Shown piece after piece: positions 6,612-57,646 of a stretch of DNA of 64,000 nt. Each line of letters opens with the position of its first letter. Position 1 is the stretch's first letter. The position numbers and the translations under genes were made by a program. The stretch comes from Paraspadella gotoi (Eukaryota; Animalia; Chaetognatha), in NCBI GenBank assembly GCA_051294375.1, contig CM119264.1, forward strand, positions 24,034,002 through 24,098,001. Reading direction: 5' to 3'. The notes under the pieces are model-generated. The model saw only the letters and a list, made by a program, of their open reading frames with translations, had not been told where the DNA came from and did no database searches.

Positions 6612-6973
6612 ATTAGAAGAAGTTTGAATTATTTCAATAACGATTTTATATTTCAGAAAAAAACGTACATGTTTCGGCTTTTGTTCAAGCCTTCATCAGC
6701 GTTAATTTGATATGTGAAAAAGTTAAACAAATCTGTGCAAAAGAAGGAGAGAAAGAGAGAGAGAAAAATAGAGAGAGGGCAAAGTATTGATAAAGAACAG
6801 TGGTCAAATGGTGGAAGAGGCTAAAGGTGAGGACAGATTGAGTTAGTTTTGAAAAGAAGTGAAAATGGTAAGACAAATCAAATTAACGCTGATGAAGGCT
6901 TGAACGAAAGCCATGTACGTTTTTCTCTAAAAAAATAAAATCTATGTTGAAATAATTTCAAACTTCTTCTAAT
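6612..6973. mobile_element. Inverted pair of Penelope-like pseudo-LTR fragments carrying hammerhead motifs
   Basis: ~100-bp arms 6612-6716 and 6872-6973 are reverse complements; a third diverged copy lies at 19941-20120. Confidence 0.65.
6662..6703 (-). ncRNA. Minimal type I hammerhead ribozyme
   Basis: Minus strand AACG-CUGAUGA-A-GGCUU(GAACAA)AAGCC-GAAA-CAUG-UA^CGUU: stem I AACG/CGUU, 5-bp stem II, palindromic ACAUGU stem III. Confidence 0.8.
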
Positions 6974-10625: not shown

Positions 10626-13600
10626 TCATGTGCGGCGGCGTTTAGCAGCGCCGCCGCTGCCGGCGTCTCTGTCTTCCTCTGCGTCAACGACCTAAGATTT
10701 AGCGAAAAATCGAGATGATGTATTTTTTAATGTTCATGTATGATCGACTGAGTAAATATTTAAACCGTCATAGATTTTTGCTTTGTTAAATCCGAAAAAA
10801 AAACGAAATTAATTATGCAGTAAGTTCATTATTGAAGCAAGTAACCTTCCGCATCTTTCGCTCTCAAGTCCTGTTGTCATTCCAACTCCTCAATCCTCAC
10901 CTTGATGTTGCAACCAGCAATGTTGGCCTGATTGAGAGTTTTCTTGCAAACGTCGGCCGACTCCGCCGAAGCGAACTTGGCGTAGCCGTAGTTCTTGCCC
11001 GGAAGAGTGTAGACGTCAATGAGGTCGCCGAAACGGCAGAAGGCGTTGGTGAGTACGTGGGTGGCGAGAGCGCGAGGGTGGCAGACGATAAAGAGGCGGG
11101 CGGCGTAGCCAGTCTCCGTATCTGAGACGAAGATTAAGAAAAAGCTACCAATGAATATTATTATGCTACAAAAAAAATAAAATATTAAATTTAATACGTT
11201 ATATTACATGGAGATTTGATTATGCTTCAAATATGATTAAAAATTAAAAAGTACAATAAATTTACAAATCGACCTTAACTCACTTAGTCGGTTGACGATC
11301 GGCTTAATAGACGGCAGCGGAATTTCGCATGGATAGAAAGGCGGATCTTCCCCTTGTTGCGCAGACGGCGTCGGAGGCTGCAGCGCACTTGGAAAATTGG
11401 CGCCCATGGCAAAGGGCTCTGCGCCGGCGGCGTTTCTTGAGGGAGGATCGCCCATGAACTTAACGAGGAGGCGACTGGTCGGAGGATATTCCAACCCGCT
11501 CAGCTTTTCGAAGGCATATTGCGACCATCCCACAGTGGTAAAGGTGGCTTGAAAGGATCCCGCCGAAATCATATCGCATCTGGAGGAGGAAGAAATATAT
11601 ATATATATTATATAATATATATATATATGTATATCTCTCTCTCTCTGTCTTACCTCTTAAATCCGGGTATCAAATCGCAGAGGAGCGAAAGTTGTCGCTC
11701 GTCGACGCTTTTGTCACAGAGAATTTTCAGAGTGTTTGTGGAATCGGATTTTATAACGGGATTGGAGTACTAGAGACGGGGGTGGGTGTGTGAAGGAAGG
11801 GAAAAGCTTTCGATTATTGCGAATTAACTCAAAAACGTATGGAAAAAACCCTGATTTATTTATCACTTAAAACACTGGATTCCGGAATCATCGAACCTGG
11901 TCCGGCAAGGGCATGAGGGGGGAAGTAACTGGGGGAGGACCCGGCACGAACTCTGGCCCGCCTCCCATCATGGCCGGCTGAGGAGGGACGGATGAGGGAG
12001 GAGGTGGGGGTGGACCTTTGGGTAAAGGGGGGCGGGCCTCGGCGAAGATGGCCTTATAATGAGCGTCGCACTCTTCTACGGCGAGCGCAGCATCGTAGAA
12101 ACGGAAATACTGAAATTGAACGAATTTAATTAATTAAATTTAATTAAAGAAATAAAGAGATAGAAAATGAGAAAAAACGATGGAAAGGGGAAAAAGCAAA
12201 ATAAAAAGTAGTTTTAACATGGTAAAATGATAAAATGACTTCGACGATTAACGTCATGAGTTCGATCCTGATAACTTTTATTTTAATAAAAAAATAAAGA
12301 AAAAGAGAGTAAAGGAAAGAAGGAAAGAAAGAAAGAGAGAAGGAAGTACAGTCGCTGCAGAGCTCAACTCGTTTTTAGACGAATCTGAAAAGGCAGCGAC
12401 TCAGAAAAAGAGAGAGAGCGACATATAATAAAAAAAAATTAAAAAAATTTCCTATACTATATACTAATTTGCATATTGAAGTTAGTTATAATGTGAAGGA
12501 AATTAAACCCCCCCAAAAAAATCTTCATGGTGAAAATTAATATCTAATTTTTTTATATCTTGCAAATACACTCTTTTATAATATCCAATAGTAAAAAAGC
12601 GTGACGACGCCAACGTCACTAAGAAGCAAGCCCGTCTGGCGAGATAAAAATTACCTTAACATAACCGAATCCTCTGGCTTTCGCCGTGCATTTGTCTTTC
12701 GGAATGTTGAAATATTCCACCGTTCCGAACACTAATGGCGAAACGGAAAAAAAGTTTTGTTGAATGGCTAATAATTGTATTTATTATTTTTTTTTCTTAT
12801 TTAATTTTTATTTATTTATTTATTTAATTTATAACAACGTTCTGCTTCAATCTAAGATTAGGCTTGTAAAATCAATTATTGATCATTTTCTAAACAAAAT
12901 CTTACTAACTGGAAAAGTGGTCTTTGACATCAGTGTCGGAGATACCGGGCGGTACTTTAATGAACAACCGTAGCCTCTCCTCCTCGGAGACTTCCTCCGA
13001 CCGATGCTCATTGACGGCGACGAGGATCTTGAGGGGCTTGGGGGATCCGGGGATAGGCTGGGGATTGGGGAGGTATTAAGAAAGGGAAGGAAGAAGAGCG
13101 GAGGAGTTAGAGATAAAATTGAAAAAGGCTGACGTCAATGAATGCAATCATTTGAGAAAAACTCATTAAAATTCGAACCCGACGTTTCTCGCTCAACATG
13201 CACGAACCTTTCCGTGAAGATCCTCGATAGCTTTGGCTGCCTCAGAGGCTTTGGCGAACTTAACAAAAGAGGCGCCGGTGGAGATGAGGTGCCTGGTCTC
13301 GTGGTCTTTCTTTTTCAGCATGTTGATGTCCTGAGTAGAGGAATCATTGAAGTCGAAGAAAAATGCCATCAATTCGTTCATCGGAAAACAACTAAAAATA
13401 ATAACCTGCAATTCGCCGAAGCGTCCGAAGGCGGATCGGAGGTCGGATTCGACGGTGCCCTTTCCGTGGACGACGAATAGGCGTGAGTGGACAGGAAGAT
13501 CCTTCGGATTTTTAGGTCGAGACTCGGCTTTGCGAGATATGTAATAATAAATAATTATTATCATGGAATAACATGACTAGAAAATAAACCACTATAGCGG

Positions 13601-14196
13601 GTCCAATGACAAAAGTCAGGGACAAGATAGTATGGTGGACTAAAATCCACCAACCGTTCATCAGCGGCCATTGGTGTAGGAGGCAAGTCATTCGCCTTCC
13701 AACCTAAAGGTCCGGGGTTCTAGCCCGGTGGTCGCCTAGCAGTTAAGAGGGACGGGGCGCTTACCCCGCCTGTAACACGGTGTTACAGCCTGATCCGAAG
13801 CTCAGGGACTGCTTATATTGAACGGTTCTGTCACTAAATCATAACTATTACTGTCTCTTCAATAGCTTCTATGATATTTATTGAATGAACGGATAAATTT
13901 CATTCAAGAATAAAATAAAAACTGAACTAACCGGGAGCGTAGAATTGATTAAAGTATGATTCGCTTCCAGCGGTTATGTTCGATGGACCCGAAATAAATG
14001 GAATGTTACTTCCTCCTCCACCACCGCTCCCGCCACTAAAGTAATAGTCGTCACGTCCGCCGCCAGCCCAACCCGAAGCGGAGGAGGTGCCGTAGCCTTC
14101 GTAGGCGTTGCCATTTCCCGAATAGGCCTCGCGACTGTCGTAGACGCCACCGCGCTCAAAACGGGCGTAATCGGTGCCGTAACCAGCGTACGACAT
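10626..14196 (-). CDS. RBM45: RNA-binding protein 45-like, paralogue A (multi-exon)
   Basis: DLPVHSRLFVV RRM1, GASFVKFAKASEAAKAIE, GLEYPPTSRLLVKF (HOA region), last RRM YGYAKF, C-terminal NLS-like AAKRRRT*. Confidence 0.88.
12595..12650 (+). mobile_element. Truncated copy of a Helitron/Helentron-like 3'-hairpin element
   Basis: GACGACG...AAGAAGCAA...CCCGTCTGGCGAGATAAAAA shared with copies at 20390-20485 and 55440-55546. Confidence 0.5.
13633..13862 (+). mobile_element. tRNA-derived SINE-like element, copy 1 (RBM45-A intron)
   Basis: 72-nt tRNA-like unit 13664-13735 (acceptor GCGGCCA/TGGTCGC, A-box-like TGGTGTAGGAGG, B-box-like GGTTCTAGCC, TCC in the anticodon loop); homologue at 56587-56819. 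Confidence 0.75.
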
Positions 14197-15034: not shown

Positions 15035-18000
15035 TCAATCTCTGTCCATCGTGGTCCGCGGTCTTTTGTGGTCGGATTCGCCGGAGTGACCTTCTTCCGC
15101 TTCGATAACCTGCGTCGAGGAAACTAGCGTCACCATCGTCACTTGGCAACGGACGCACAGGGTAACATCTCTCTCAGCAATCTTTATTCCTTCGCAACAT
15201 TGCTCCAATTCCATGATCATGCCATTGCATACAAAGTTACGAACACATCGGAATGAAAGGTGAGAGATAAATTTAATTTGGTTAAATTTTTTCGTCATGC
15301 GTAATAAAAGATAATGTCAAAAACAAGTCTGTTGGCAACTTTGGTACAAGTTTCCCAAAACTACACCAGAGTGAAACAATAGCTTCATATTATAATATGA
15401 CCAGAACACGTTCCGAGACAACACTACTGGACCAAATTTTTTTAAATTTGGTAAGAACGATCCCTATGTGAATACAAATAGAACTATCGAGGCGAATTTC
15501 AATATTTGACCCCTGAGCCGATATACGGGCCCCCTGGGGGGGTCACCTATTGGGGCAAAAAATGGTCAAAAATATATTTTTTTTTTTCATCATTTATGCA
15601 TCTTCAAACCATGCTTAATTATTGAAAGTTTATCAATTTTAGTTTTAAATGTTTTAAATATTTAAATGTTTCTTTTATATTTAAAACGTCAATGCACCTG
15701 ATGATATTAAAAAATTCTACAAAATAAAAATAAAAATTTTAGCTTTTTATGGACCCCCAGGGGTCCACCCCCAAGGCCCTGTATCTCTTGTCAGGGGTTG
15801 AATATCAAAATTCGCCGCGATAGTTCCATTTATATTGTCTTTGAACTCTAAAGGTAAAATTTCATGAAATTCGATCGGGTAGTTTGGTGGGAACATTCTG
15901 GTCACAAAAAAGGGGTACCTCATTTTATAATATGAAGCCTTCTGTATACAAACAAAAATTCAAATATTAGCTTCCACCCTTTTTTCTACAAACTAAACCC
16001 ACTCCCCAGAAACAAGCCCAAAATCTACCTCTTACGTCCATTACCGACTTTGCCCCTCGGGCGACTTCCCACCTTAATCCTGATTCCGGCGATCTCCGCC
16101 CCGTGCAGGGTCTTCCGGCAATCGTCGGCCGCTTTCACGTCGTTGAACTTGGCGTAGCCGTAGTTTTTCCCTGGCAGCGTGAACACGCTGATGAGGTTTC
16201 CGAATCGACAAAAGGCGTCGGTCAATATCGCTTGTGGCAGGGGACGCGGTACGCAGACTATGAATACTCGCGCGGCGTAGTCGCGGCGCGTCACTGTAGG
16301 GATAAACGGAGGAGAATTTTAAGTGGAGGTGGGGGAAAAGAGTGGAAGATAAGTAGGTCAAAAAGGAGCGGCGTCATAAGAGAGGGTTGTGGGCGAAACC
16401 GTCATATACAGGTCGGATTAAGAGAAATGGGATCGGGGTGTATTTTTATAGGCAATAACTGTAAAATGGATATTTGCTCGAGGCCGCGGGCGACAAAGGC
16501 GAAAAGAATTAAGGGTCGATGACGCGGGAAAGAGTTCCGTTCGCTCTCGCTGCTTTTTCAACCTCTATTTTATCCTTTTTCTTTCTTTCTAATATTAGAC
16601 CAGCCCGGTTAATAGGGGAGAACCATCGATTTTGCAACGTCAACGAAAATGAGAAATAGCGAGAGGAGAATGATGATGGAGTCGCCGACGAGGATAATAG
16701 GAAAAGACTGGAAACCTACGACAACCAATCTATTCACTGCAACAAAACAAATTTAGAAAAGACGACGACGACGTAAAAGACGACTGTTGAAGACGACGCT
16801 CACCAGGATCCATCGAAGTGCCTGGGACGATCGGCTGCTTGGGCGGCAGCGGGCAGTTGCAGGGATAAAATGGCGCATCGGAGCCCACACCGCCGCTGAC
16901 GTCCATGAGCTGCTGCTGCTGCGATTCGGGGACGAACTTGGTGACGAGCCGACTTCCTGGGGGATACTCGAACCCGTTGAGCTTATCTTTGGCGTAAGCG
17001 GCCCATTGCAGTGAGGTGAAAGTGGCGTTGGCCGACCCGGCCGAGATCATGTCACAACTTATAGAAATGATGGGAGGCGGGGAGAAGTGAGAGAAATAAT
17101 AAATACCTAAAGTTGCCAGAAAAAATTCAGATTTTAATTTTTTTTTAAATTGGAAATAAAATTGTTTCCAAATAACCTTCATTTGAAGAAGTAACCAAAT
17201 AGAGATCTCACCGATAGAAGGCGGGAAAGAGGTCGCAGAGGAGCGTCAACTGTCGTTCGTCGACCTCTTTCGGGCAGAGGATCCGTATGCAGGTCGACGC
17301 ATCGGGCGGGGTCTGTCGGAAAAACAAATCAAGACAATTTTAATCGATTTTTGCGATCCAATATTCCGATATTTCACGCATTTTCTCCTCAGGGATTTTC
17401 AACTTTGTCGCGATTGAACGTTTAACTGTTACCAATTCAGATTTTAGATTTTATCGATAGCTAACGATATAAATATTATAAGGGCAACTTTAACAATCCA
17501 TTTATACGTATTTGTAGTATTTCTATCTTTACAATTTTTATCTGTCTCAATTTCTTTCGACTATTCCCGGAGAGTTGGCGCAATTCCGACAGTTTTTTTT
17601 TTCCTCTTTCCGGTTTTAAGGAGAGAAAACCATATAAGCAACGTAAAGAACAAGCCGAGATCGTAGAAAACCACTTTAAATAATTTTAATTTTGTTAATT
17701 TTAACCAATTAAAACATTGTATTATTTTACCTTAATTCTACTATATATTTTATATCCATAACGCCTATTATAAAATAACAATTATTATTTTATTCAAATT
17801 TTCAAAAATAATAAAAAAACTGACCGACCGACTAATATCTTATTCGTGCCATGCGAATGGAAGAAAAAAAAAGATCAGTTGAAAAAGTAGGTCGCGTTGA
17901 AAAGTCGCGCAAGGATGAAGACTGAAAAGCGTAACGTCGTCGTATTTTGACGAGAAATTCTCCACAATGAAATCGACTTCATAAATATTAATGAAAACGA

Positions 18001-19045
18001 CTACTGTGGCGGTATATTCACACCGACTCACGTCCCCAATCGTTCAGCCAATACCATTGGCTCAGAGGGGGAACGTGCCATCCCAGGCGTTGCGTTCCAT
18101 CCAGTCCTAACGACTTCCCTCTGCATTGTCAAAGCGAGACCGTCCTAGTGTAACCGCGCCAGTGACTGGAGGCGTCACTGAGGGTTGGAAGCGCCCAAAG
18201 CCAACAGTGAGATGCCCCATCCCAATGGGCATCACAGGCAACCCGGCCATACTACAGCACTTTAATTACTATGGCGACAGGAAAATAATGGCAGGGTCGC
18301 TTTACCTTCGCAATTGGGATGTAATTTTATTCCACCACCAATCCTGAACTTGTACGGTAGTATCAGTGTTTTTTTTTCACCTAGCTGCATCTCCATCAGT
18401 CCTAATGACCTTCTATTTACCCACCTGGATCATCGGCATCTGCGGCTGCTGCATTCCCGCCCCAAATTGGGAGCCCATGTTAGTCCAGGGGCCCGAGCCG
18501 CCGCTGGCCATTAGACCCGTATTTCCGAAGGAATAGTCGTTGGGAGCGTGATTAGAGCCGCCTGGAGGAGCCGCGCTTGGGGAACGACTAGGTTTGGAGG
18601 CGAAGACCGGCTTGAAGGAGGGTTCGCACTCTTCCAAGGCGCGTGCAGCCTCGTAGAATCTGAGTACAGAGGTAGCAGAAAGGAGCATCGCTTTTTTCGC
18701 TGTTGCTTACTAGTAAAACTTATGGCTTATGAAAATGACTAGGAGTAGTTTCATCAGCTTCACTTTTTAAACAAAGCAACTGACTTTCCGAAACCAACGA
18801 AAGTTTAAAAGGTTTCTCCGTTTTATTTATGCTGGACACAAAAGCTTCGACCGCCGTTGAATTATTCATTAACTCCGATTTTTTTCCCCTCCTTCTCCGA
18901 ACCCATCACCTTAGAAAATCCGTAAATAACTTGGAGGTCGAAAAAACAAACGAACCATTTTAAGAGTTACCTAACGAAAAAATAAATTAAGCCTAATAAT
19001 AACCAAAAAGAGGGGCACGACGTTTGACTATATACCCCTCTTTTT

Positions 19046-19101
<56 letters not shown>

Positions 19102-20920
19102 CTGAAAAACTTGACAAACGCGACGCCCTTGGACTTGTTGGTCGCCTTGTCACGAATGATGGTCACGTACTCGACGGGACCGAACTTAGCGAAGTGCTCC
19201 TTGATTTCATCCTACAGTTGAAGGGGAAAATAAGAGGAAGAGGCGGGTGTAAAAAGCTAAGGGATTGAGAGTGAGCTGCCAGACATTGCAATGACGCCAA
19301 CGAACCTGCGAGTATTCAGGTGGGGTCTTTATGTACAGCCTGACAAGCTCTTCGTGGGTGATCTCCTCTTTGTTGCCGCCGACCTGAGTGGCGACCATCA
19401 CCTTCAGGGGCGACGACCCGCTGGCTATCATCTGAAAATGGGGGCGGGGGAAAGAGCTTTTTTTTGGAAGGAACTCGATCATCTTGATTAGTGTCATTCG
19501 TTTCGGAAACATTTTTTAAAAAACCTCGTAAACCTGCCGATGAAGGGCAGATAATTTTCTTTTTAAAAGCGAGTAAAAAACTACCCTCCCCACTGTTACG
19601 AACAGCCCACCTTCCCGTTGAGCTCCTCGATGGCCTTGGCCGCCTGTGATGCCTTGGAGTACTTGACGTAAGAAACGCCGGAGTGAGAGTCGCGCTTGTT
19701 CGGCGTCACGTAGACGTCCTCAACGACGCCGTGAGGTGCAAAAGCCTGGCGGAGATCCTCCTGGCCGAGGTCCCGCCCGTGGATGACGAAGAGGCGGCTG
19801 TGCATGGGCAGGTCGCGAGAGGTCCGTTTAGGACCACGTTCTGCACAGGAGGAAGTGTACACGACGAAAAAAGGAACGCATTAGGAAAATTATGAAAACA
19901 ATCTTTAAATTTAGATTATAATAAATTTAAAAATCTTTATTGAAATTAATTTCAACAACGATTTTATTTTCATGGAGAAAAAACGAACATGTTTCGGCTT
20001 TTAATGCAATCCTTCATCAACATCAATTTGATTTGTGAAATATCAGACAAAATTTGTGCAAAGGAAGGGTGGAGGGGGAGAGAGAGGGGGAGAGAGATAG
20101 AGAGAGAGAGAGGGCAAAGTTTCTCGCCAAACAGAAAAAAAAAAAAAAAAAAAAACTATCACAAAAAATTAATTAAAATGATCCATCGCTCATTATGACA
20201 TGTAATGAATTGAATGATATGAATCTAATGAAATGAATAAAATGAAATTAATTGAATGAATGAATGAAAAAAAATTTAATGAATTGATGTAGGAGAGATA
20301 AAGAGATAGAAAATGAAAGAAATCAATGATTTAAATTTTTAACATCTTTTGATTGTACGCTTTTACAAGAATCAATCGTAATTCGCAAAAAAAAGCGTCA
20401 AGACGACGACGACGACGATTAAGAAGCAATAGTAAACAATTATCCCGCCCAAGATGGGCCTCAACCCGTCTGGCGAAATTAAAAAATGTCATCAATCCAA
20501 ATTTTAAAAAAATTAAAGAGTTGAATTATAATTACAGGGACTTCAATCTGGACTGATACGAAAAAACTTGTAATATAATTGAAATGAAAAGCATTCAGGT
20601 TATAAATTGTTTTATAATAATTGAAAAAATATTTGACTTTTTCCCCAATTCATAACATTCTAACATTTTCCTCAGAGGGTAAATTTCTGAAGAAGCATTT
20701 TTTACTTTAAATTTCAGCTTGGGGGATGACTTTGTTGATAAATAATCGTTATCATAATAAATAAGTTTTCCAATTAATAAATATTATAAAAATAATATAC
20801 ATTAAAAGAATTACGAGTTTAATCAAATATTTTCGTATCGCTCCAGATTGAAGTCCCTGTATAAATGGAAACGAACCCAGAGGTCCTTGAGACTGATAAA
20901 AGCTTTCGCTTCCGCCACCT

Positions 20921-41103: not shown

Positions 41104-41606
41104 CAGAAGGCATCATATTAGAAAATGATACGCCGTTTTTTCGAGCGGAGAATCGGTTCCGGAATAACTACAGGACCAAATATGTTGAAATTTTTTATAT
41201 ATGATCCTTAAGGGAATATAAATAGAACTATCGATGTAGAAATATTGTCGTTGTTCAAGGCGAATTTTAATATTTGACCCCGAAGCCGAGATATGGGTCC
41301 CCATGGGGGTTACACACAGGGGTGAAAAAAGGTCAAAATTTTTTATTTTAATTTTTTGATTTTTTTTAGTTTTGAACAGTGGCATAGACGTTTATTTATC
41401 CTGAAAAACGTATTTACATGCAACTAAAGAACTAGTTAACCTTAATTTCTCCTCTCAGGGGTTGAATATAAAAATTCCCCTCGATTCCCCTAATTTGTAT
41501 AGCCAAAGTCTACCTTCATGCCAAATTTGATCAAATTTGATAGTTTGTGCGGAACAGATTCTCGCTCGAAAAAACGGCGTATCATTTTTTAATATGAAGC
41601 ATTCTG
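41104..41606. mobile_element. MITE, copy 2
   Basis: CAGAAGGCATCATATT / AATATGAAGCATTCTG termini; internal similarity to 15377-15944. Confidence 0.7.
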
Positions 41607-41734
41607 CATTATCGTTTTCATTTCGTGTGCCAGCATTAAGTAATGTTTGCGGCCGGACGCCGTCGCAAGGGCGTGGTCGAGTAACACACATCGAGTTATT
41701 ACACTATTTCGGCTCTTCCTTTTTCTTCGCGACG

Positions 41735-43351: not shown

Positions 43352-46300
43352 TTAACCGCAAGCGGACGTCCTGAAACTCGTGACCCCATGAAACTCCTTC
43401 ATCCGCTTCTCAATCTCTGGGCGGAAGTGGCGAATGAGGCCCTGCACCGGCCAGGCCGCGGCGTCGCCGAGAGCGCAGATGGTGTGGCCTTCGATCTGCT
43501 TAGTCAACTCCCACAGGGAATCGATCTCGTCCGGGTGGCCGTCACCGATCACAAAGCGGTCTAGCACTTTGAGGAGCCAGCCGCAACCCTCTCTGCGTCA
43601 AAAAGAAAAAAAACCAGACCAAGTTTTTAAGTGAACCATAGTCACGGTATTATTTATTTCTTTTTATAACTGAACATTTTCTTTAAATTAATATAAACAA
43701 ATAACAACAGACCCACAGACCGAAAAGTGTCTAAAAAAACAGTTTTTCTTGCATTAGAATAAGACAAAAGCGCTGGTGGAACCTGCAAGGAGTGCACTGG
43801 CCGCAGGACTCGTGGGCGTAAAAGACCGCCAGTCTCGCGATGGCTTTTATGATGTCGGTTCTTTTGTCCATCACGATCACAGCGGCTGTGCCTGCAAATA
43901 CGAGGAAGTAAAAATATGTACCATGTATATGCATATTATTATATTCAATATGCAATATTTTTAAATTTATTTTCGTTTAATTAATAATTGATTTAACTAA
44001 TCAAGTCATGCTCTCGCTGTGCCCCCTACCCAATCCCGATTCGACTTCGACAAGCCCGTCGAAATCCATGATGGCACTCTCGCAGATGTGCTTGGGGATG
44101 ACAGGAACGGAGGACCCGCCCGGAATGATCCCCAACAGGTTGTCCCAGCCGCCGCGGATGCCGCCGCAATGGCGTTCTAGCATCTCGCGAAGCGGCATGG
44201 ACATCTCCTCCTCGAAGGTACAGGGTTTGTTAACATGGCCGGAGACGCAAAAGAGTTTTGTTCCGTTGTTTCTTTAAATATAAGGTAAGAAATGTATGTA
44301 ATTAAAAACACAAGGACCGAAAAAAAATCCACAACTACCGGCGCCCTCACCTGGGTCTGCCCAAGCTCCCGAACCAATCGCCGCCCCGCCGACAGATTGA
44401 TGGTGCGACTGCGACGGTTTCCACGTTGGCGACGGTGGTCGGGCAGCCGAAGACGCCGATGTCGGCAGGAAACGGAGGCTTCAGACGAGGTTTCCCCTGT
44501 TTGCCTTCGATAGACTCGATAAGGGCAGTTTCCTGAAAGTCATTTTCTTTTTTTTTTTCCACTTATTTCCAAGCAGTTTGTATCTAGATCGACTTCATTC
44601 AATTTCACCAAAACTCTTAAAACCTTACCTCCCCACAGATGTACGCGCCTGCTCCGCGATGGAGATAAACGTCAAAGTCGTACCCGCTGCCGCATGCATT
44701 TTTTCCAATGAGTCCGGCGCGGTAGGCTTCGGCGATGGCAACTTGGAGGTTGGTGCCCTCGTGGTAAAACTCGCCTGATGGAATCAATTTACAATAACAC
44801 TTCTTTAATCTCATTTGCATATAACGGGAACGTGATTATGGATTACTCAGTACCCCCAGAAAAAAATATTTTGCTCGCCTCGAATGTAAATGTAGGCGGC
44901 GCGGGCGTTCATAGATCTTCCAGCGATGAGGCACCCTTCCACGAGTGTGTGCGGGTCGTGCCTCATGATTTCGCGGTCCTTACAGGTTCCGGGCTCGCCC
45001 TCGTCCGCGTTAACGACGAGATATTTTGGCCGACCGTCTCCTGGCTTGTTCATGAAGGACCACTTGAGTCCAGAGGGAAAGCCGGCTCCGCCGCGGCCGC
45101 GAAGTCCCGACTTCTTGACCTCCTCAAGAATCCATTCGTGACCTTTGAGGACGATCTCTTTGGTCTTGTACCAATTGCCACGCTGAGTGGTAGGAAACGA
45201 TTAAAAAACGTATAGAATGGGATCATGATGAAATTATATTATCTTCACAGGTCATGTTCGACAGGGAGTACCGAGACGGCGCACTCAGAGACGTTTGGGT
45301 AGAACCTTCGAGACTTTTTTCTTTATTCTCTCTTAGTCAAAGAGAAGCGCGAAAAGCAGACTTCTCTTCATAATTGATTTGAGCGAGATAACAACAATAA
45401 CAGTCCTCCAACACTACCTTCAACGCCCCCTTGAGGCGCCAATCGTGTCGGCCATAGACGTTGGTGAAGATGCGGTCCTCGTCTTTGAGATTTCCGTAGC
45501 AGATGAGACGAACACAGGAAAGAGAAGGCAGAGAGAAACGACGAAGGGCTGGGGAAATTAAAAAGACGGTCGCCGGTCAGTCGCGATTTATCAGTAAGGC
45601 CTTGAAAAACAACCATTATGGCAACAGCCGGGTTGCCTGTGATGCCCATTGGGATGGGGCATCTCACTGTTGGCTTTGGGGGCTTCCGACCCTCAGTGAC
45701 GCCTCCAGTCACTGGCGCGGTTACCCTAGGACGGTCTCGCTTTGCCAACGCAGAGGGAAGTCATTAGGACTGTGGATGGAACACTACGCCTGGGATGGTG
45801 TGTTCCCCCTCTGAGCCAATGGATTTGGCTGACGGATGGTGGACGTGAGGCGGTGTGAATATACCGCCACAGGATCCCCGGGCCAAGACATCACTCAGGT
45901 TCCTCAAGCCTGAGAGGTGTCTGACAAGACTGTTACCATAGTGGGAGAGAGAGAGAGAGCGCGAGTTGTGGGGCATAGGCGTTTGTCGTAGCGTACCCCA
46001 GGGGCATAGGCGTTTTGTCGTAGCGTACCCGAAGTCGGCAGGGCATAGGCGTTTGTCGTAGCGTACCCTGAGAAGGTTGCGTGTTCGATAGTAGGGCTCA
46101 CCACTTATGGCAACAGCCGGGTTGCCTGTGATGCCCATTGGGATGGGGCATCTCACTGTTGGCTTTGGGGGCTTCCGACCCTCAGTGACGCCTCCAGTCA
46201 CTGGCGCGGTTACCCTAGGACGGTCTCGCTTTGCCAACGCAGAGGGAAGTCATTAGGACTGTGGATGGAACACTACGCCTGGGATGGTGTGTTCCCCCTC

Positions 46301-46496
46301 TGAGCCAATGGATTTGGCTGACGGATGGTGGACGTGAGGCGGTGTGAATATACCGCCACACCATCCTATTTTTTACGAAATGGGCGAGGGGGGGAGCTAA
46401 TTATAACTTACGCCACCGCAGATATTAAAACGAAACTCATTATTCACCCGCACGTCTTGCGCCATCGAAAAGGAGACGACGAGCCGCGACGTCCAT
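43352..46496 (-). CDS. NDUFV1: NADH dehydrogenase flavoprotein 1 (complex I 51-kDa subunit; multi-exon)
   Basis: [66 protein letters not shown]; first exon [16 protein letters not shown]. Confidence 0.97.
45669..45749 (-). ncRNA. Putative type-P5 twister ribozyme in the 3' LTR
   Basis: GUUGGC-AAA-GCGA-GA-CCG-UCCUAGGG-U^AA-CCGC-GCC-AGUGAC(UGGAGGC)GUCACU-GAGGG-UCGGAAGC-CCCC-AAA-GCCAAC; predicted cut 45723/45722. Confidence 0.75.
45969..46069. repeat. Three ~28-bp tandem repeats inside the LTR element
   Basis: GGGCATAGGCGTTT(T)GTCGTAGCGTACCC x3 with short linkers. Confidence 0.9.
46158..46238 (-). ncRNA. Putative type-P5 twister ribozyme in the 5' LTR
   Basis: Identical to 45669-45749; predicted cut 46212/46211. 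Confidence 0.75.
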
Positions 46497-54979: not shown

Positions 54980-57208
54980 TTAAAATCTTTTCAGTCTCTG
55001 CTGCGCCTTAAGGCGATTGATGAGATCCGAGGGGAATTGTTTGAGATAAGAAAAGACGGCGCGCGAGGGACGATCAGGGTGAGGCGTTGGATCCGTCTCC
55101 TCCGGTCGAACGCGTCCGTTCTCCGACGTTCTGTTCGGTCGCGTCAAATGGACGGTCTTTTTTGTCAACTCCACGTTGCGGACGCCGCCAAAGAATTCCG
55201 TCACCTTAACCTGGTCGACGGAAATACAAATTACTTGTTCAAGTACTTCTTTTTGAATCGCTAAATACGAGACCATCCCTGGTCCTTGAAAAGAATTTTG
55301 GAATATTCCTTCAAAACAAATGACCCATAAGCCAACCAAAGGACCGCGCCCCTGCAAACCACCGACCTTCTTAGTATTCTTCGGGTAAAGATCCTTGCGA
55401 ACCCCCACCGTAGAGATGCACTTTTGTTTAGGGCAACACTGAAAAGAACAAAATGCATGATGACAACGACGACGATACAAAGAAGCAATACTAAATGGTT
55501 ATCTACGCCCAAGACGGGCTTAAGTCCGTCTGGCGAGATAAAAAACGTTGCTCTTCCGGTCATTCTTCCTTTTCATCTTGGTCCTACAACCAACCTTGAA
55601 GAGCTCAGCCATAGAGGTGGCGCTGTTGGGAGAGACCTTCTCGAGAAAGTCAAGGAGGTAGTAAGTGAATCTGTCGATAATGTAGACGCCAATGTTGGGG
55701 TCCACATGGTGGGAGAGGCTATCCTCGCCGACCTGCAGGAAAAAAACAATAGGTCGTTAACAGCACAAAGTCCAGAAGCGATGTACTCGCCTGACTCGAG
55801 CCGATGGCAATGATGTTGGGCGAATAAAACTCGTGGTACAACGAAACGGCTTGGCAAGTGTCCACTATGAAGAGGAGCTCGTGGTAGCGCCGCTTCTGCC
55901 ACATCTGCGTAAAAGATGCATAAATTCTAGGTTAGCGATGATTATCACGTATCTTCATAAATTTTCAAACAGAGATGGAGCAAGATTGCTGAATACTGCT
56001 GTATATCACTTTCTACATAAACAGTATACTCTACCGAACCTGTTCAAAGGCGTCCGCGAGTTCGGTATTGACGACCTCCTCCGCGTCCTGGAATTTGAGA
56101 AATCCCTCGCCGCCGTGACCGGTCAAGTAGACGAGTACGTTGCTCCTGAAGGCCAAGTGAGGGGGAAATCTAAGAAAAAGGTCGTCGCGGATCTCAAGAT
56201 AATTGAAGACTCGCCTGTCGTCTGACAACAGGCGCTTGGATCTGGTGACGCTGGGATCCAGCCTCCCGGTTAGGACGCGAATGAAGTTTTCCACGGTCAC
56301 CTACGATCGACGAAATTGAAAGGTTCAGCAAATTCTGCCACTCTCTTCAACGTCAATTATATTTCTTCGTCGCACCTCGTATCCTCGGTAGTCGACTTCG
56401 ACGTCGTCGCCATAGACATTGATATGTTGGTGGGCGTTGTTGTAGACGGTGGCGGGTTTGACGTTACGGGCGTTGCAAGCCATGTCGTCCGCCAACATCA
56501 GGATGATGTGGGAGTCCGGGATTCCTAGGCGTTTGATGCTGGAAGATAGAGAAGGGCGATTCAGGGTCACAATGTAAATCACAGGGTTGAAGAGACAGTT
56601 ATTTTTGTTATGGGATAGTGACAGAACCGTTCAATATAAGCAGTCCCTGAGCTTCGGATCAGGCTGTAACACCATGTTACAGGCGGGTTAAGCGCCCCGT
56701 CCCTCTTCACTGCTAGGCGACCACCGGGCTAGAACCCCAGACCTTTGGGTTGGGAGGCAAATGACTAGCCTCTGGCACCAATGGCCGCTGATGAACGGTT
56801 GGTGGATTTTAGTCCACCAGAGGGTTGGCAATTTTTTACCTGCGGTAAACGGAGAGCGCATTGGCGACGTGTCTATAATTGAACCAGAACCTGAAAATAT
56901 GAAAATGCTAACGCTATTTAATCTTAAAACAATTTTACTAAAGTACGTAAGAAAGCGGCAATTCTTGTATTTTTTTGTAGGTCGGGTGTTTAACAAAAGC
57001 AACTTAAACATCAAACAGTAAAATTATTAATCAGCACTCATGCGATTTCGCACCTGGACGTGTCGACGATGACGGCCCAATTGTTTGTGTGGCCGCTGCT
57101 GAAAAACTCTTCTGCTTTCTTAGAGGCCGATGACGACGTCGAACTGACAAAAACAGATGTCGTCGACGCAACAAGAAATAGAAACGTTCGCCAATTTCCG
57201 AGACTCAT
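54980..57208 (-). CDS. PIGK: GPI-anchor transamidase catalytic subunit GPI8 (multi-exon)
   Basis: [13 protein letters not shown]|[42 protein letters not shown] (catalytic His), DTCQA (catalytic Cys). Confidence 0.96.
55440..55546 (+). mobile_element. Helitron/Helentron-like 3'-hairpin element (PIGK intron)
   Basis: GACGACGA, AAGAAGCAATA, hairpin CGCCCAAGACGGGCTTAAGTCCGTCTGGCG followed by AGATAAAAA. Confidence 0.55.
56587..56819 (-). mobile_element. tRNA-derived SINE-like element, copy 2 (PIGK intron)
   Basis: Reverse-complement homologue of 13633-13862 over its full length. Confidence 0.75.
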
Positions 57209-57407: not shown

Positions 57408-57646
57408 TGTCAAACACGTCCATCATCGTTAAGCCAATCCCATTGGCTCAGAGGGGGAACACACCATCCCAGGCGTTGTGTTCCATCCACAGTCCTTATG
57501 ACTTTCCTCTGCTTTGGCAAAGCGAGACCGTCCTCGGGTAACCGCGCCAGTGACTGGAGGCGTCACTGAGGGTCGGAAGCCCCCAAAGCCAACAGTGAGA
57601 TGCCCCCATCGCAATGGGCAACACAGGCAACCCGGCTGTTGCCATA
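57408..57646 (+). mobile_element. Solo LTR of the twister-bearing element (RhoGAP-PIGK spacer)
   Basis: TGT...GCCATA flanked by TSD ATTC (57404-57407 / 57647-57650); short deletion near the 5' end. Confidence 0.85.
57513..57593 (+). ncRNA. Putative type-P5 twister ribozyme in the solo LTR
   Basis: Core matches the 45669 copy except the P1 loop (UCCUCGGG) and the first P5 base; predicted cut 57539/57540. Confidence 0.7.

What the first reader, a model, noticed from the sequence alone, without database searches (positions are those of the whole stretch)
45617..46360. Candidate twister-ribozyme LTR retrozyme in an animal genome
Seen: a 744-bp non-coding element with two identical 255-bp LTRs, a 4-bp TSD (CCAT) and a PBS-like TGG motif. 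Each LTR holds an 81-nt motif with the twister landmarks in permuted (type P5) order: closing stem GUUGGC/GCCAAC, GA+CCG able to form pseudoknot T1 with CGG in loop UCGGAAGC, U^AA cleavage site, P2 CGC/GCG, GCC, a P3 hairpin and P4 GGG/CCC. Known: plant LTR retrozymes share this layout (small, non-coding, one ribozyme per LTR, PBS, 4-bp TSD, circular RNA intermediates) but use hammerheads, and the animal retrozymes I know of are non-LTR hammerhead repeats. Inference: this is an LTR retrozyme built on twister, mobilised in trans by a Ty3/gypsy-type element; I do not know of a described example. Caveats: C.A mismatches at the ends of P2 and P4, and a weak polypurine tract.
Basis: partly seen in the sequence, partly recalled or inferred. 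Interest (0 to 1): 0.95.

Follow-up and report, generated by a model that had tools for sequence, protein, structure and literature searches.

The report
Twister-ribozyme LTR retroelement in an animal
A tiny, very young, much-repeated jumping gene in an invertebrate genome carries in both of its end repeats an RNA fold with the hallmarks of a twister self-cutting RNA, which is predicted to work when the two ends pair and would likely release a small RNA circle for copying, a design so far described only in plants and with a different ribozyme.

Summary
Observation confirmed and extended. The 744-bp element has identical 255-bp LTRs, a 4-bp TSD, TGT…ATA ends and a tRNA-Trp-type PBS: the CsRn1 Ty3/gypsy signature, with no helper genes in the window. 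Each LTR holds a P5-order twister core. Rfam and my own model do not call it significant, but a pseudoknot-aware descriptor finds it with 0 hits in 300 shuffled windows. Common family variants spare its stems and core, and its odd pairs are tolerated in a published mutational scan. A second, divergent solo-LTR family in the same window keeps the core while every helix changes with pairing kept. In both families P1 is a short palindrome, not a hairpin, and a strand-swapped double twister between the two LTRs is predicted 6.8 kcal/mol better than two separate ones. Cleavage, circles and the helper are untested; a strong competing fold and a sense insertion in an essential gene's intron argue for slow or gated cutting. 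Best reading (0.62): a retrozyme-like element built on twister. My searches found none in print; this scan earlier noted P5 twisters in Naiad Penelope tails, not in LTR elements.

The parts
45617..46360 (-). Full-length non-autonomous LTR element (family 1), 744 bp
46361..46364 (.). Target-site duplication CCAT (element 5' side)
45613..45616 (.). Target-site duplication CCAT (element 3' side)
46106..46360 (-). 5' LTR, 255 nt, ends TGT...ATA
   Evidence: termini match CsRn1-like elements in PMC2582038 section 6
45617..45871 (-). 3' LTR, identical to the 5' LTR
46158..46238 (-). P5-order twister-like motif in 5' LTR; predicted cut between 46212 and 46211
   Evidence: cut site inferred from twister consensus
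45669..45749 (-). P5-order twister-like motif in 3' LTR; predicted cut between 45723 and 45722
46213..46220 (-). 8-nt self-complementary P1 segment (5' LTR), predicted to pair with its twin
45724..45731 (-). 8-nt self-complementary P1 segment (3' LTR)
45723..46211 (-). Predicted 489-nt cut-to-cut monomer (candidate circular RNA)
   Evidence: inferred; fold z -2.16 linear, -2.44 circular
46092..46103 (-). Primer-binding site, 11 of 12 letters as the tRNA-Trp PBS of CsRn1-like elements
45875..45879 (-). Weak polypurine tract (four G and A), 3 nt before the 3' LTR
45971..46068 (-). Three copies of a 28-nt internal repeat, each predicted to form a small hairpin
45549..46447 (-). Host intron 1 of an NDUFV1-like gene (complex I 51-kDa subunit) holding the element in sense; 151 nt without it
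18005..18251 (+). Family-1 solo LTR with 4-bp TSD CTAC; motif decayed (5 changes incl. L4, P4, P1)
57415..57646 (+). Family-1 LTR, 5'-truncated; core intact, palindrome broken
56588..56821 (-). Family-2 solo LTR (234 nt, TSD ACCC) with twister-like motif 56713->56640 and 6-nt palindromic P1
13631..13861 (+). Family-2 solo LTR (231 nt, TSD ATAG) with twister-like motif 13739-13812; UAC in place of UAA

Best explanation
This is a young, much-repeated, non-autonomous LTR retroelement with the CsRn1-type Ty3/gypsy ends and primer site, and each LTR holds a conserved twister fold that likely cuts the transcript, most likely as a paired double ribozyme, to release a 489-nt RNA that would be circularised and copied by a helper's enzymes. 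Shown: LTRs, TSD, PBS, many insertion sites, twister core, conservation and between-family covariation, palindromic P1. Inferred steps: (1) a transcript that spans both motifs is made from the 5' LTR or by host read-in; (2) the two palindromes pair, swapping strands so each core is built from one half of each LTR, and both U^A sites are cut; (3) a host ligase of the RtcB type joins the 5'-OH and cyclic-phosphate ends, which the fold already holds together; (4) tRNA-Trp primes at the PBS, and a CsRn1-type reverse transcriptase runs round the circle, giving LTR-internal-LTR DNA without a first strand transfer; (5) the helper's integrase inserts it with a 4-bp duplication. Solo LTRs, lacking a partner, would be nearly silent.
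For: CsRn1 signature: TGT...ATA, PBS TGGTGAG/CCCCGT/A, 4-bp TSD (PMC2582038 s6); solo LTRs with 4-bp TSDs. Mobile family: 10,166 contigs of DNA run X3 lie on it; 93, 66, 69 and 17 unlike flanks end at 45617-45614 in X3. Descriptor 0/300 shuffled windows; relaxed form adds the family-2 copy, 3 hits in 1000 shuffles, and finds 20 of 24 Rfam-called P5 loci. Family 2 changes T1 (one pair flipped), P2, P3, P4 and P5 yet keeps pairing and UAA/GC/AAGC/GA. X3 variants at 5% or more: 13 of 122 positions upstream of the motif, 0 of 70 in its stems and core, 2 in the P3 loop (p 0.0025). A biofilm-metagenome copy has 19 substitutions, none in the motif, and replaces exactly the 7-nt P3 loop by 3 letters. 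Oddities tolerated in rice twister (PMC5113685 supplement): C.A at P2 end RA 0.97, A.C at P4 end 0.90, T1 flips 0.86 and 0.74. T1 flip is natural (8 of 10 loci pass Rfam P5). P1 segments of 8 and 6 nt are fully self-complementary, versus 12-30 nt and 0 of 105 in references; double twister -264.5 vs -257.7 kcal/mol. Dimeric hammerheads with a palindromic loop are a precedent (PMC7229834 passages). RNA run X9 splices the host gene and holds 622 contigs of the family.
Against: No significant covariance-model score: Rfam and model R1 (6.7-7.4 bits, E 2.8-4). Monomer twister fold is 9.1 (family 1) and 7.8 (family 2) kcal/mol above the best fold, worse than all 103 references (max 7.0); the dimer still lies 11.4 above for two cores. 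C.A at the P2 end had 0 phage hits against at least 123 for U-A, and no variant at 1% or more changes it. Mutational-scan values saturate (2-h assay), and one related double mutant is poor (G44A+G35C 0.25; G44A+C20A 0.75). The last 52 nt of the LTR are as invariant as the motif (0 of 52), so constraint is not specific to it. Family 2 has only 3 nt on the 5' side of P2 and one copy reads UAC. Given a two-pair P1, the extra palindrome pairs have a joint chance of about 0.04, and the idea was formed after seeing the data. The element lies in sense in an intron of an essential gene in three DNA runs. No helper gene among 271 window ORFs of 75 aa or more. Contigs cannot show strand, ends, level or circularity.
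Confidence: 0.62

Rival explanations
1. The twister is active but only sets the 5' end of a linear RNA (freeing it from host read-through), and the element replicates by ordinary LTR strand transfer with no circle.
For: Twisters at the 5' end of RTE/Perere-3 elements are reported to do this (PMC8501958 abstract and sections 3, 17; PMC7761336 passage). Many copies sit in introns. No circle was seen.
Against: The two LTR motifs are identical, so one cut without the other needs an extra rule; the predicted dimer cuts both and leaves no terminal repeat for strand transfer (inference).
Confidence: 0.2
2. The fold descends from a twister and is kept as a structural signal (for example RNA pairing or packaging through the palindrome), but cuts slowly or not at all; the element is an ordinary TRIM in mechanism.
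For: Strong competing fold; failed model scores; fixed C.A; sense insertion in an essential gene's intron; self-complementary dimer signals are usual in retroelement RNA (recalled).
Against: The unpaired catalytic letters (U^AA, GA, AAGC, GC) show no variant at 1% or more and are kept across two families whose helices differ, with T1 covarying; a purely structural role would not need them.
Confidence: 0.13
3. The twister likeness is chance in a GC-rich, hairpin-rich LTR of an ordinary TRIM.
Against: 0 of 300 and 3 in 1000 shuffled windows; an independent second family at the same LTR position; variant pattern.
Confidence: 0.05

Closest known systems
Plant LTR retrozymes (Cervera et al. 2016, PMC4918200; passages read)
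   Same: Small, no helper genes, one self-cleaving motif per LTR, 4-bp TSD, PBS, solo LTRs, Ty3/gypsy helper inferred from ends
   Different: They use type III hammerheads and tRNA-Met, are 1-1.5 kb with 600-1000-nt monomers, and circles are shown; here twister, tRNA-Trp type, 744 bp, 489-nt monomer, animal host, circles untested
Type-P5 twister ribozymes (Rfam RF02684; Roth et al. 2014 not held)
   Same: Strand order and core letters; T1 and T2 possible; P3 and 4-bp P4 as in P3-bearing phage examples
   Different: P1 segment 6-8 nt and palindromic (references 12-30 nt); C.A at P2 end; below Rfam threshold; sits in an LTR
CsRn1-clade Ty3/gypsy elements (PMC2582038; section 6 and passages read)
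   Same: TGT...ATA ends, tRNA-Trp PBS, 4-bp TSD
   Different: No gag/pol; no ribozyme reported for the clade (0 papers with both terms)
Animal TRIMs incl. Helenus (PMC10886601; parts 1-4 of 6 read)
   Same: Under 1 kb, two LTRs, PBS, 4-bp TSD, Gypsy-mobilised, can reach thousands of copies
   Different: No tRNA-derived promoter shown in these LTRs; a ribozyme motif instead
Animal non-LTR retrozymes (PMC7229834; passages read)
   Same: Small animal repeats with a self-cleaving motif; axolotl ones have a palindromic loop and cut better as dimers
   Different: They are tandem hammerhead repeats without LTR, PBS or 4-bp TSD
Twister variants of Schistosoma Perere-3 (PMC8501958; abstract, sections 3 and 17 read)
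   Same: Twister in an animal retroelement, weak or variable P1
   Different: Non-LTR, autonomous, type-P1 order, single 5' ribozyme

Membership tests
Twister ribozyme | Conserved core letters U^AA, GC, AAGC, GA in a known order | tested here: met
   no variant at 1% or more at these letters
Twister ribozyme | Pseudoknots T1 and T2 can pair | tested here: met
   T1 3 of 3 Watson-Crick in both families with one pair flipped between them
Twister ribozyme | Stems P2 and P4 | tested here: met
   3 of 4 pairs each in family 1; end mismatches tolerated in PMC5113685; outer P4 pair non-standard in 6 of 104 references
Twister ribozyme | Stem P1 | tested here: inconclusive
   No hairpin predicted; full 8-bp or 6-bp duplex between two copies, -10.0 and -8.3 kcal/mol
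Twister ribozyme | Rfam twister model at gathering score | tested here: not met
   the models hold no pseudoknots and expect a long P1, so this lowers membership in the Rfam family more than the fold
Twister ribozyme | Site-specific self-cleavage | not testable with these tools
   only contigs were available
Plant LTR retrozyme | Ribozyme motif inside both LTRs, 4-bp TSD, PBS, no coding | tested here: met
Plant LTR retrozyme | Type III hammerhead | tested here: not met
   no hammerhead hit; motif is twister-like
Plant LTR retrozyme | tRNA-Met PBS | tested here: not met
   PBS fits the tRNA-Trp type
Plant LTR retrozyme | Clear polypurine tract | tested here: inconclusive
   five purines, 3 nt before the LTR
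Plant LTR retrozyme | Abundant circular RNA | not testable with these tools
   RNA run X9 holds the family but as contigs
CsRn1-clade Ty3/gypsy | TGT...ATA or AAA ends, tRNA-Trp PBS, 4-bp TSD | tested here: met
CsRn1-clade Ty3/gypsy | CHCC Gag and Pol phylogeny | not testable with these tools
TRIM | Under 1 kb, two LTRs, PBS, no mobility proteins | tested here: met
   definition in PMC10886601
Helenus | tRNA-derived A/B boxes in the LTR | tested here: not met
   no tRNA hit; box pairs matched by 29-211 of 1000 shuffles, and the best family-1 match falls inside the twister motif
Animal non-LTR retrozyme | Tandem hammerhead units without LTR or PBS | tested here: not met

The most novel reading that the evidence does not exclude
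A radiation of animal LTR retrozymes built on an obligate double twister: the two LTRs of one transcript pair through a palindrome and cut each other, so only full-length copies make RNA circles, solo LTRs stay silent in host introns, and a CsRn1-type Gypsy copies the circles. This would be the first LTR retrozyme in animals, the first on twister and the first natural dimeric twister in the papers I could search.
Probability: 0.4. Interest if true: 0.93.

Novelty: new variant of a known kind. Interest (0 to 1): 0.82.

Why it matters
It would show that the retrozyme way of life (LTR plus self-cutting RNA plus circle) arose again in animals with another ribozyme class and another Gypsy clade, giving twister a concrete biological job. 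A dimer-dependent twister would be a new natural architecture, explain how thousands of ribozyme-bearing LTRs are tolerated in genes, and show that Rfam-based surveys miss such elements. It also bears on where one-ribozyme twister circles in metatranscriptomes come from (PMC11721086 passage raises unknown retrozyme families). Every step can be tested with in vitro transcription and one RNA sample.

Tried and rejected
No whole genome was held, so no genome-wide alignment or helper search. Rfam: no twister at E<=10 on 2 kb, none at gathering on 64 kb, none for family 2. Custom model R1 from 22 P3-bearing phage twisters: motif found at its exact bounds but E 2.8-4 among 15 hits; the set was biased by my search pattern and only P2 and P4 were modelled. 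Collection scans for relatives gave chance matches or nothing: viral contigs (checked in 35, 36, 47, 117; 19 of the 24 loci were sent to Rfam), metagenome contigs (4 hits, none real), prokaryote genomes. No listed run is on record as RNA; X9 was shown to be RNA by splicing. Summed depths (X9 36,000-91,000 on the LTR 3' half vs 360 on host exons; DNA runs thousands-fold over flank) are not used as expression level or copy number: the tool says they are neither, and read-through of many copies could give the RNA signal. The 506-nt biofilm contig that runs once round the unit fits a collapsed repeat as well as a circle. Pol III promoter (Helenus) idea rejected. Coding role for the 124-aa ORF rejected. 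Penelope pseudo-LTR rejected: PBS, 4-bp TSDs and solo LTRs. Homology of the two families by plain alignment is only suggestive (global score reached by 9 of 1000 shuffles, local by 88 of 1000). Whether minority changes in the palindrome (2-3% in X3) occur together could not be read from the table. The second sequence search of earlier findings and the place search were empty.
Full report
Observation. The element is as described: LTRs 45617-45871 and 46106-46360, 255 nt and identical, CCAT on both sides, 234 nt between them, read on the minus strand. The motif 45749->45669 has the twister core in P5 order; the predicted cuts lie 489 nt apart. The internal part holds three 28-nt repeats and a short (GA)n run. 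A 124-aa sense ORF has no Pfam or database relative, and 212 of 2000 shuffles give one as long.

Host and site. The window is gene-dense animal DNA. An MCM2 exon's best named relatives are a brachiopod (71%), molluscs, annelids and nemerteans (about 66-68%), with four unnamed proteins at 87-89%: an invertebrate, probably spiralian. The element lies in sense in intron 1 (46447-45549) of an NDUFV1-like gene. Run X9 skips three introns of that gene and joins exon 2 to exon 1 letters, so it is RNA and confirms the gene model; whether X9's strain has this insertion is unknown. In DNA runs X2, X3 and X6 the flank contig runs into the LTR with no empty-site end among those listed (525 loose ends hidden).

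What kind of element. PMC2582038 (section 6) gives CsRn1-like Ty3/gypsy elements ends of TGT...AAA or TGT...ATA, a tRNA-Trp PBS TGGTGAG/CCCCGT/A and 4-bp TSDs. This element has TGT...ATA, 11 of those 12 PBS letters and a 4-bp TSD. A solo LTR with TSD CTAC (18005-18251) and a truncated LTR (57415-57646) lie in the same window. X3 lays 10,166 contigs on the element and shows 93, 66, 69 and 17 unlike flanks at 45617-45614: a large, recently active family. None of 271 window ORFs of 75 aa or more matches a retroelement domain. It is a TRIM by the definition in PMC10886601; the CsRn1-type helper is inferred.

Is it a twister? Against: Rfam gives no twister at E<=10 on 2 kb or at gathering on the window, and only 15.2 bits (E 1.9) on 331 nt; my model R1 finds the exact bounds at E 2.8-4. 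For calibration I collected phage-contig twisters (Rfam called twister in 19 of 20 loci sent). A descriptor requiring the core, T1, T2, P2 and P4 hits three window copies and none of 300 shuffled windows or 20,000 shuffled LTRs. The odd features are individually tolerated in the rice twister scan (PMC5113685, main text and supplement parts 10-11 and passages): C.A at the P2 end RA 0.97, A.C at the P4 end 0.90, T1 flips 0.86 and 0.74; related doubles give 0.75 and 0.25; the assay saturates. The T1 flip occurs in nature (8 of 10 loci pass Rfam P5) and the outer P4 pair is non-standard in 6 of 104 references, but C.A at P2 had 0 phage hits.

Selection. In X3, variants at 5% or more fall at 13 of 122 positions upstream of the motif (11 table rows hidden), at 0 of 70 stem and core positions and at 2 P3-loop positions (p 0.0025). 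The largest stem variant (4%) gives a standard pair at the P4 end; the rest are 1-2.4% transitions, mostly at CpG; the catalytic letters show none at 1%. The LTR's last 52 nt are equally fixed, so constraint is not specific to the motif. A copy in biofilm run X11 has 19 substitutions, 12 upstream of the motif, 7 internal, none in it, and swaps exactly the 7-nt P3 loop for 3 letters. Organism B (X10) holds a 276-nt piece with 2 changes, both upstream of the motif.

Second family. R1's third hit led to two solo LTRs (13631-13861, TSD ATAG; 56588-56821, TSD ACCC) unlike family 1 by blastn. They carry the same core at the same place in the LTR with different helices: one T1 pair flipped, P3, P4 and P5 rewritten with all pairs kept. 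A relaxed descriptor finds the 56-kb copy, 3 hits in 1000 shuffled windows, and 20 of 24 Rfam-called loci. Caveats: P2's 5' strand is 3 nt, and the 13-kb copy reads UAC. This is covariation between only two families.

Dimer. As monomers both motifs fold poorly: 9.1 and 7.8 kcal/mol above the best fold, beyond all 103 references (median 1.8, max 7.0). The cause is P1: 8 and 6 nt, against 12-30 nt in 105 references, and fully self-complementary in both families (0 of 105 references; duplexes -10.0 and -8.3 kcal/mol). Pairing the palindromes of the two LTRs gives a nested, strand-swapped double twister at -264.5 against -257.7 for two separate ones and -275.9 for the best fold, pseudoknots not counted. 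Both decayed family-1 copies have broken palindromes. Axolotl hammerheads with a palindromic tetraloop cut better as dimers (PMC7229834 passages). I had seen an earlier scan note on paired twisters in Naiad elements before noticing this. The chance of the extra pairs, given a two-pair P1, is about 0.04.

Mechanism. Shown: anatomy, mobility, conservation, presence in an RNA run (622 contigs in X9, one bridging internal part and 3' LTR). Inferred by analogy with plant retrozymes (PMC4918200 and PMC7761336 passages): double cleavage, ligation by an RtcB-type ligase, tRNA-Trp-primed reverse transcription round the circle, integration by a CsRn1-type integrase. Cutting both identical LTRs removes the terminal repeat needed for strand transfer, which is why a circle is the likeliest template. 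The dimer requirement would keep solo LTRs quiet; the sense insertion in an essential intron, with the second cut 174 nt before the acceptor, suggests slow or gated cleavage.

Known or new. Searches returned no twister-bearing LTR element and no animal LTR retrozyme. Passages read in PMC7761336, PMC5680766, PMC7229834, PMC6765202, PMC11722881, PMC11721086, PMC10085705 and bioRxiv 2022.07.19.500677 describe LTR retrozymes as plant hammerhead elements, animal ones as non-LTR, and twisters in RTE elements or in unassigned circular RNAs. PMC7761336 mentions insect elements with type III hammerheads as in preparation. The library lacks most subscription papers; Roth 2014 and Lunse 2017 were not held, and Repbase was not searched. 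Verdict: a TRIM with CsRn1 signature and a provisional, probably dimeric twister; works like a retrozyme, not a member of the hammerhead-defined family; new variant of a known kind; interest 0.82.

Noticed in passing
window 46071-46103: On the plus strand the stretch beyond the PBS reads like the 3' half of a tRNA (T-loop-like letters at 46083-46089; likeness recalled, no Rfam or ARAGORN hit), so primer complementarity may run about 33 nt. Runs X9, X10 and X11 show relatives with another continuation before 46075.
   Followed up: partly
run X11 loose ends behind 46114: Contigs share the PBS and the last 9 letters of the LTR but continue differently: probably a third LTR family with the same primer site.
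   Followed up: no
window 18071-18100 vs 46267-46295: A hairpin in the LTR's 5' half shows a two-sided change (A-U to G-C) in the 18-kb copy, hinting that the RNA outside the ribozyme is also under structural constraint.
   Followed up: no
window 56588-56821: The family-2 solo LTR lies on the same strand as flanking peptidase C13 (GPI8-like) exons, a second sense intronic ribozyme motif.
   Followed up: partly
window 6612-6973 and 19940-20120; 15423-15947 and 41104-41609: Other interspersed repeats with inverted arms, probably MITE-like DNA elements.
   Followed up: no
window 10935-11108 and 16107-16280: Duplicated RRM-coding exon, 71% alike.
   Followed up: no
L056, L086, L115, L121, L044: Phage contigs with 2-5 type-P5 twisters spaced about 400-600 nt apart.
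   Followed up: no
PMC10886601 supplement, Helenus-3_NVit-I: The internal part of this wasp TRIM shows a short run like the twister cleavage-site context; I could not parse a full twister by eye and did not test it.
   Followed up: no
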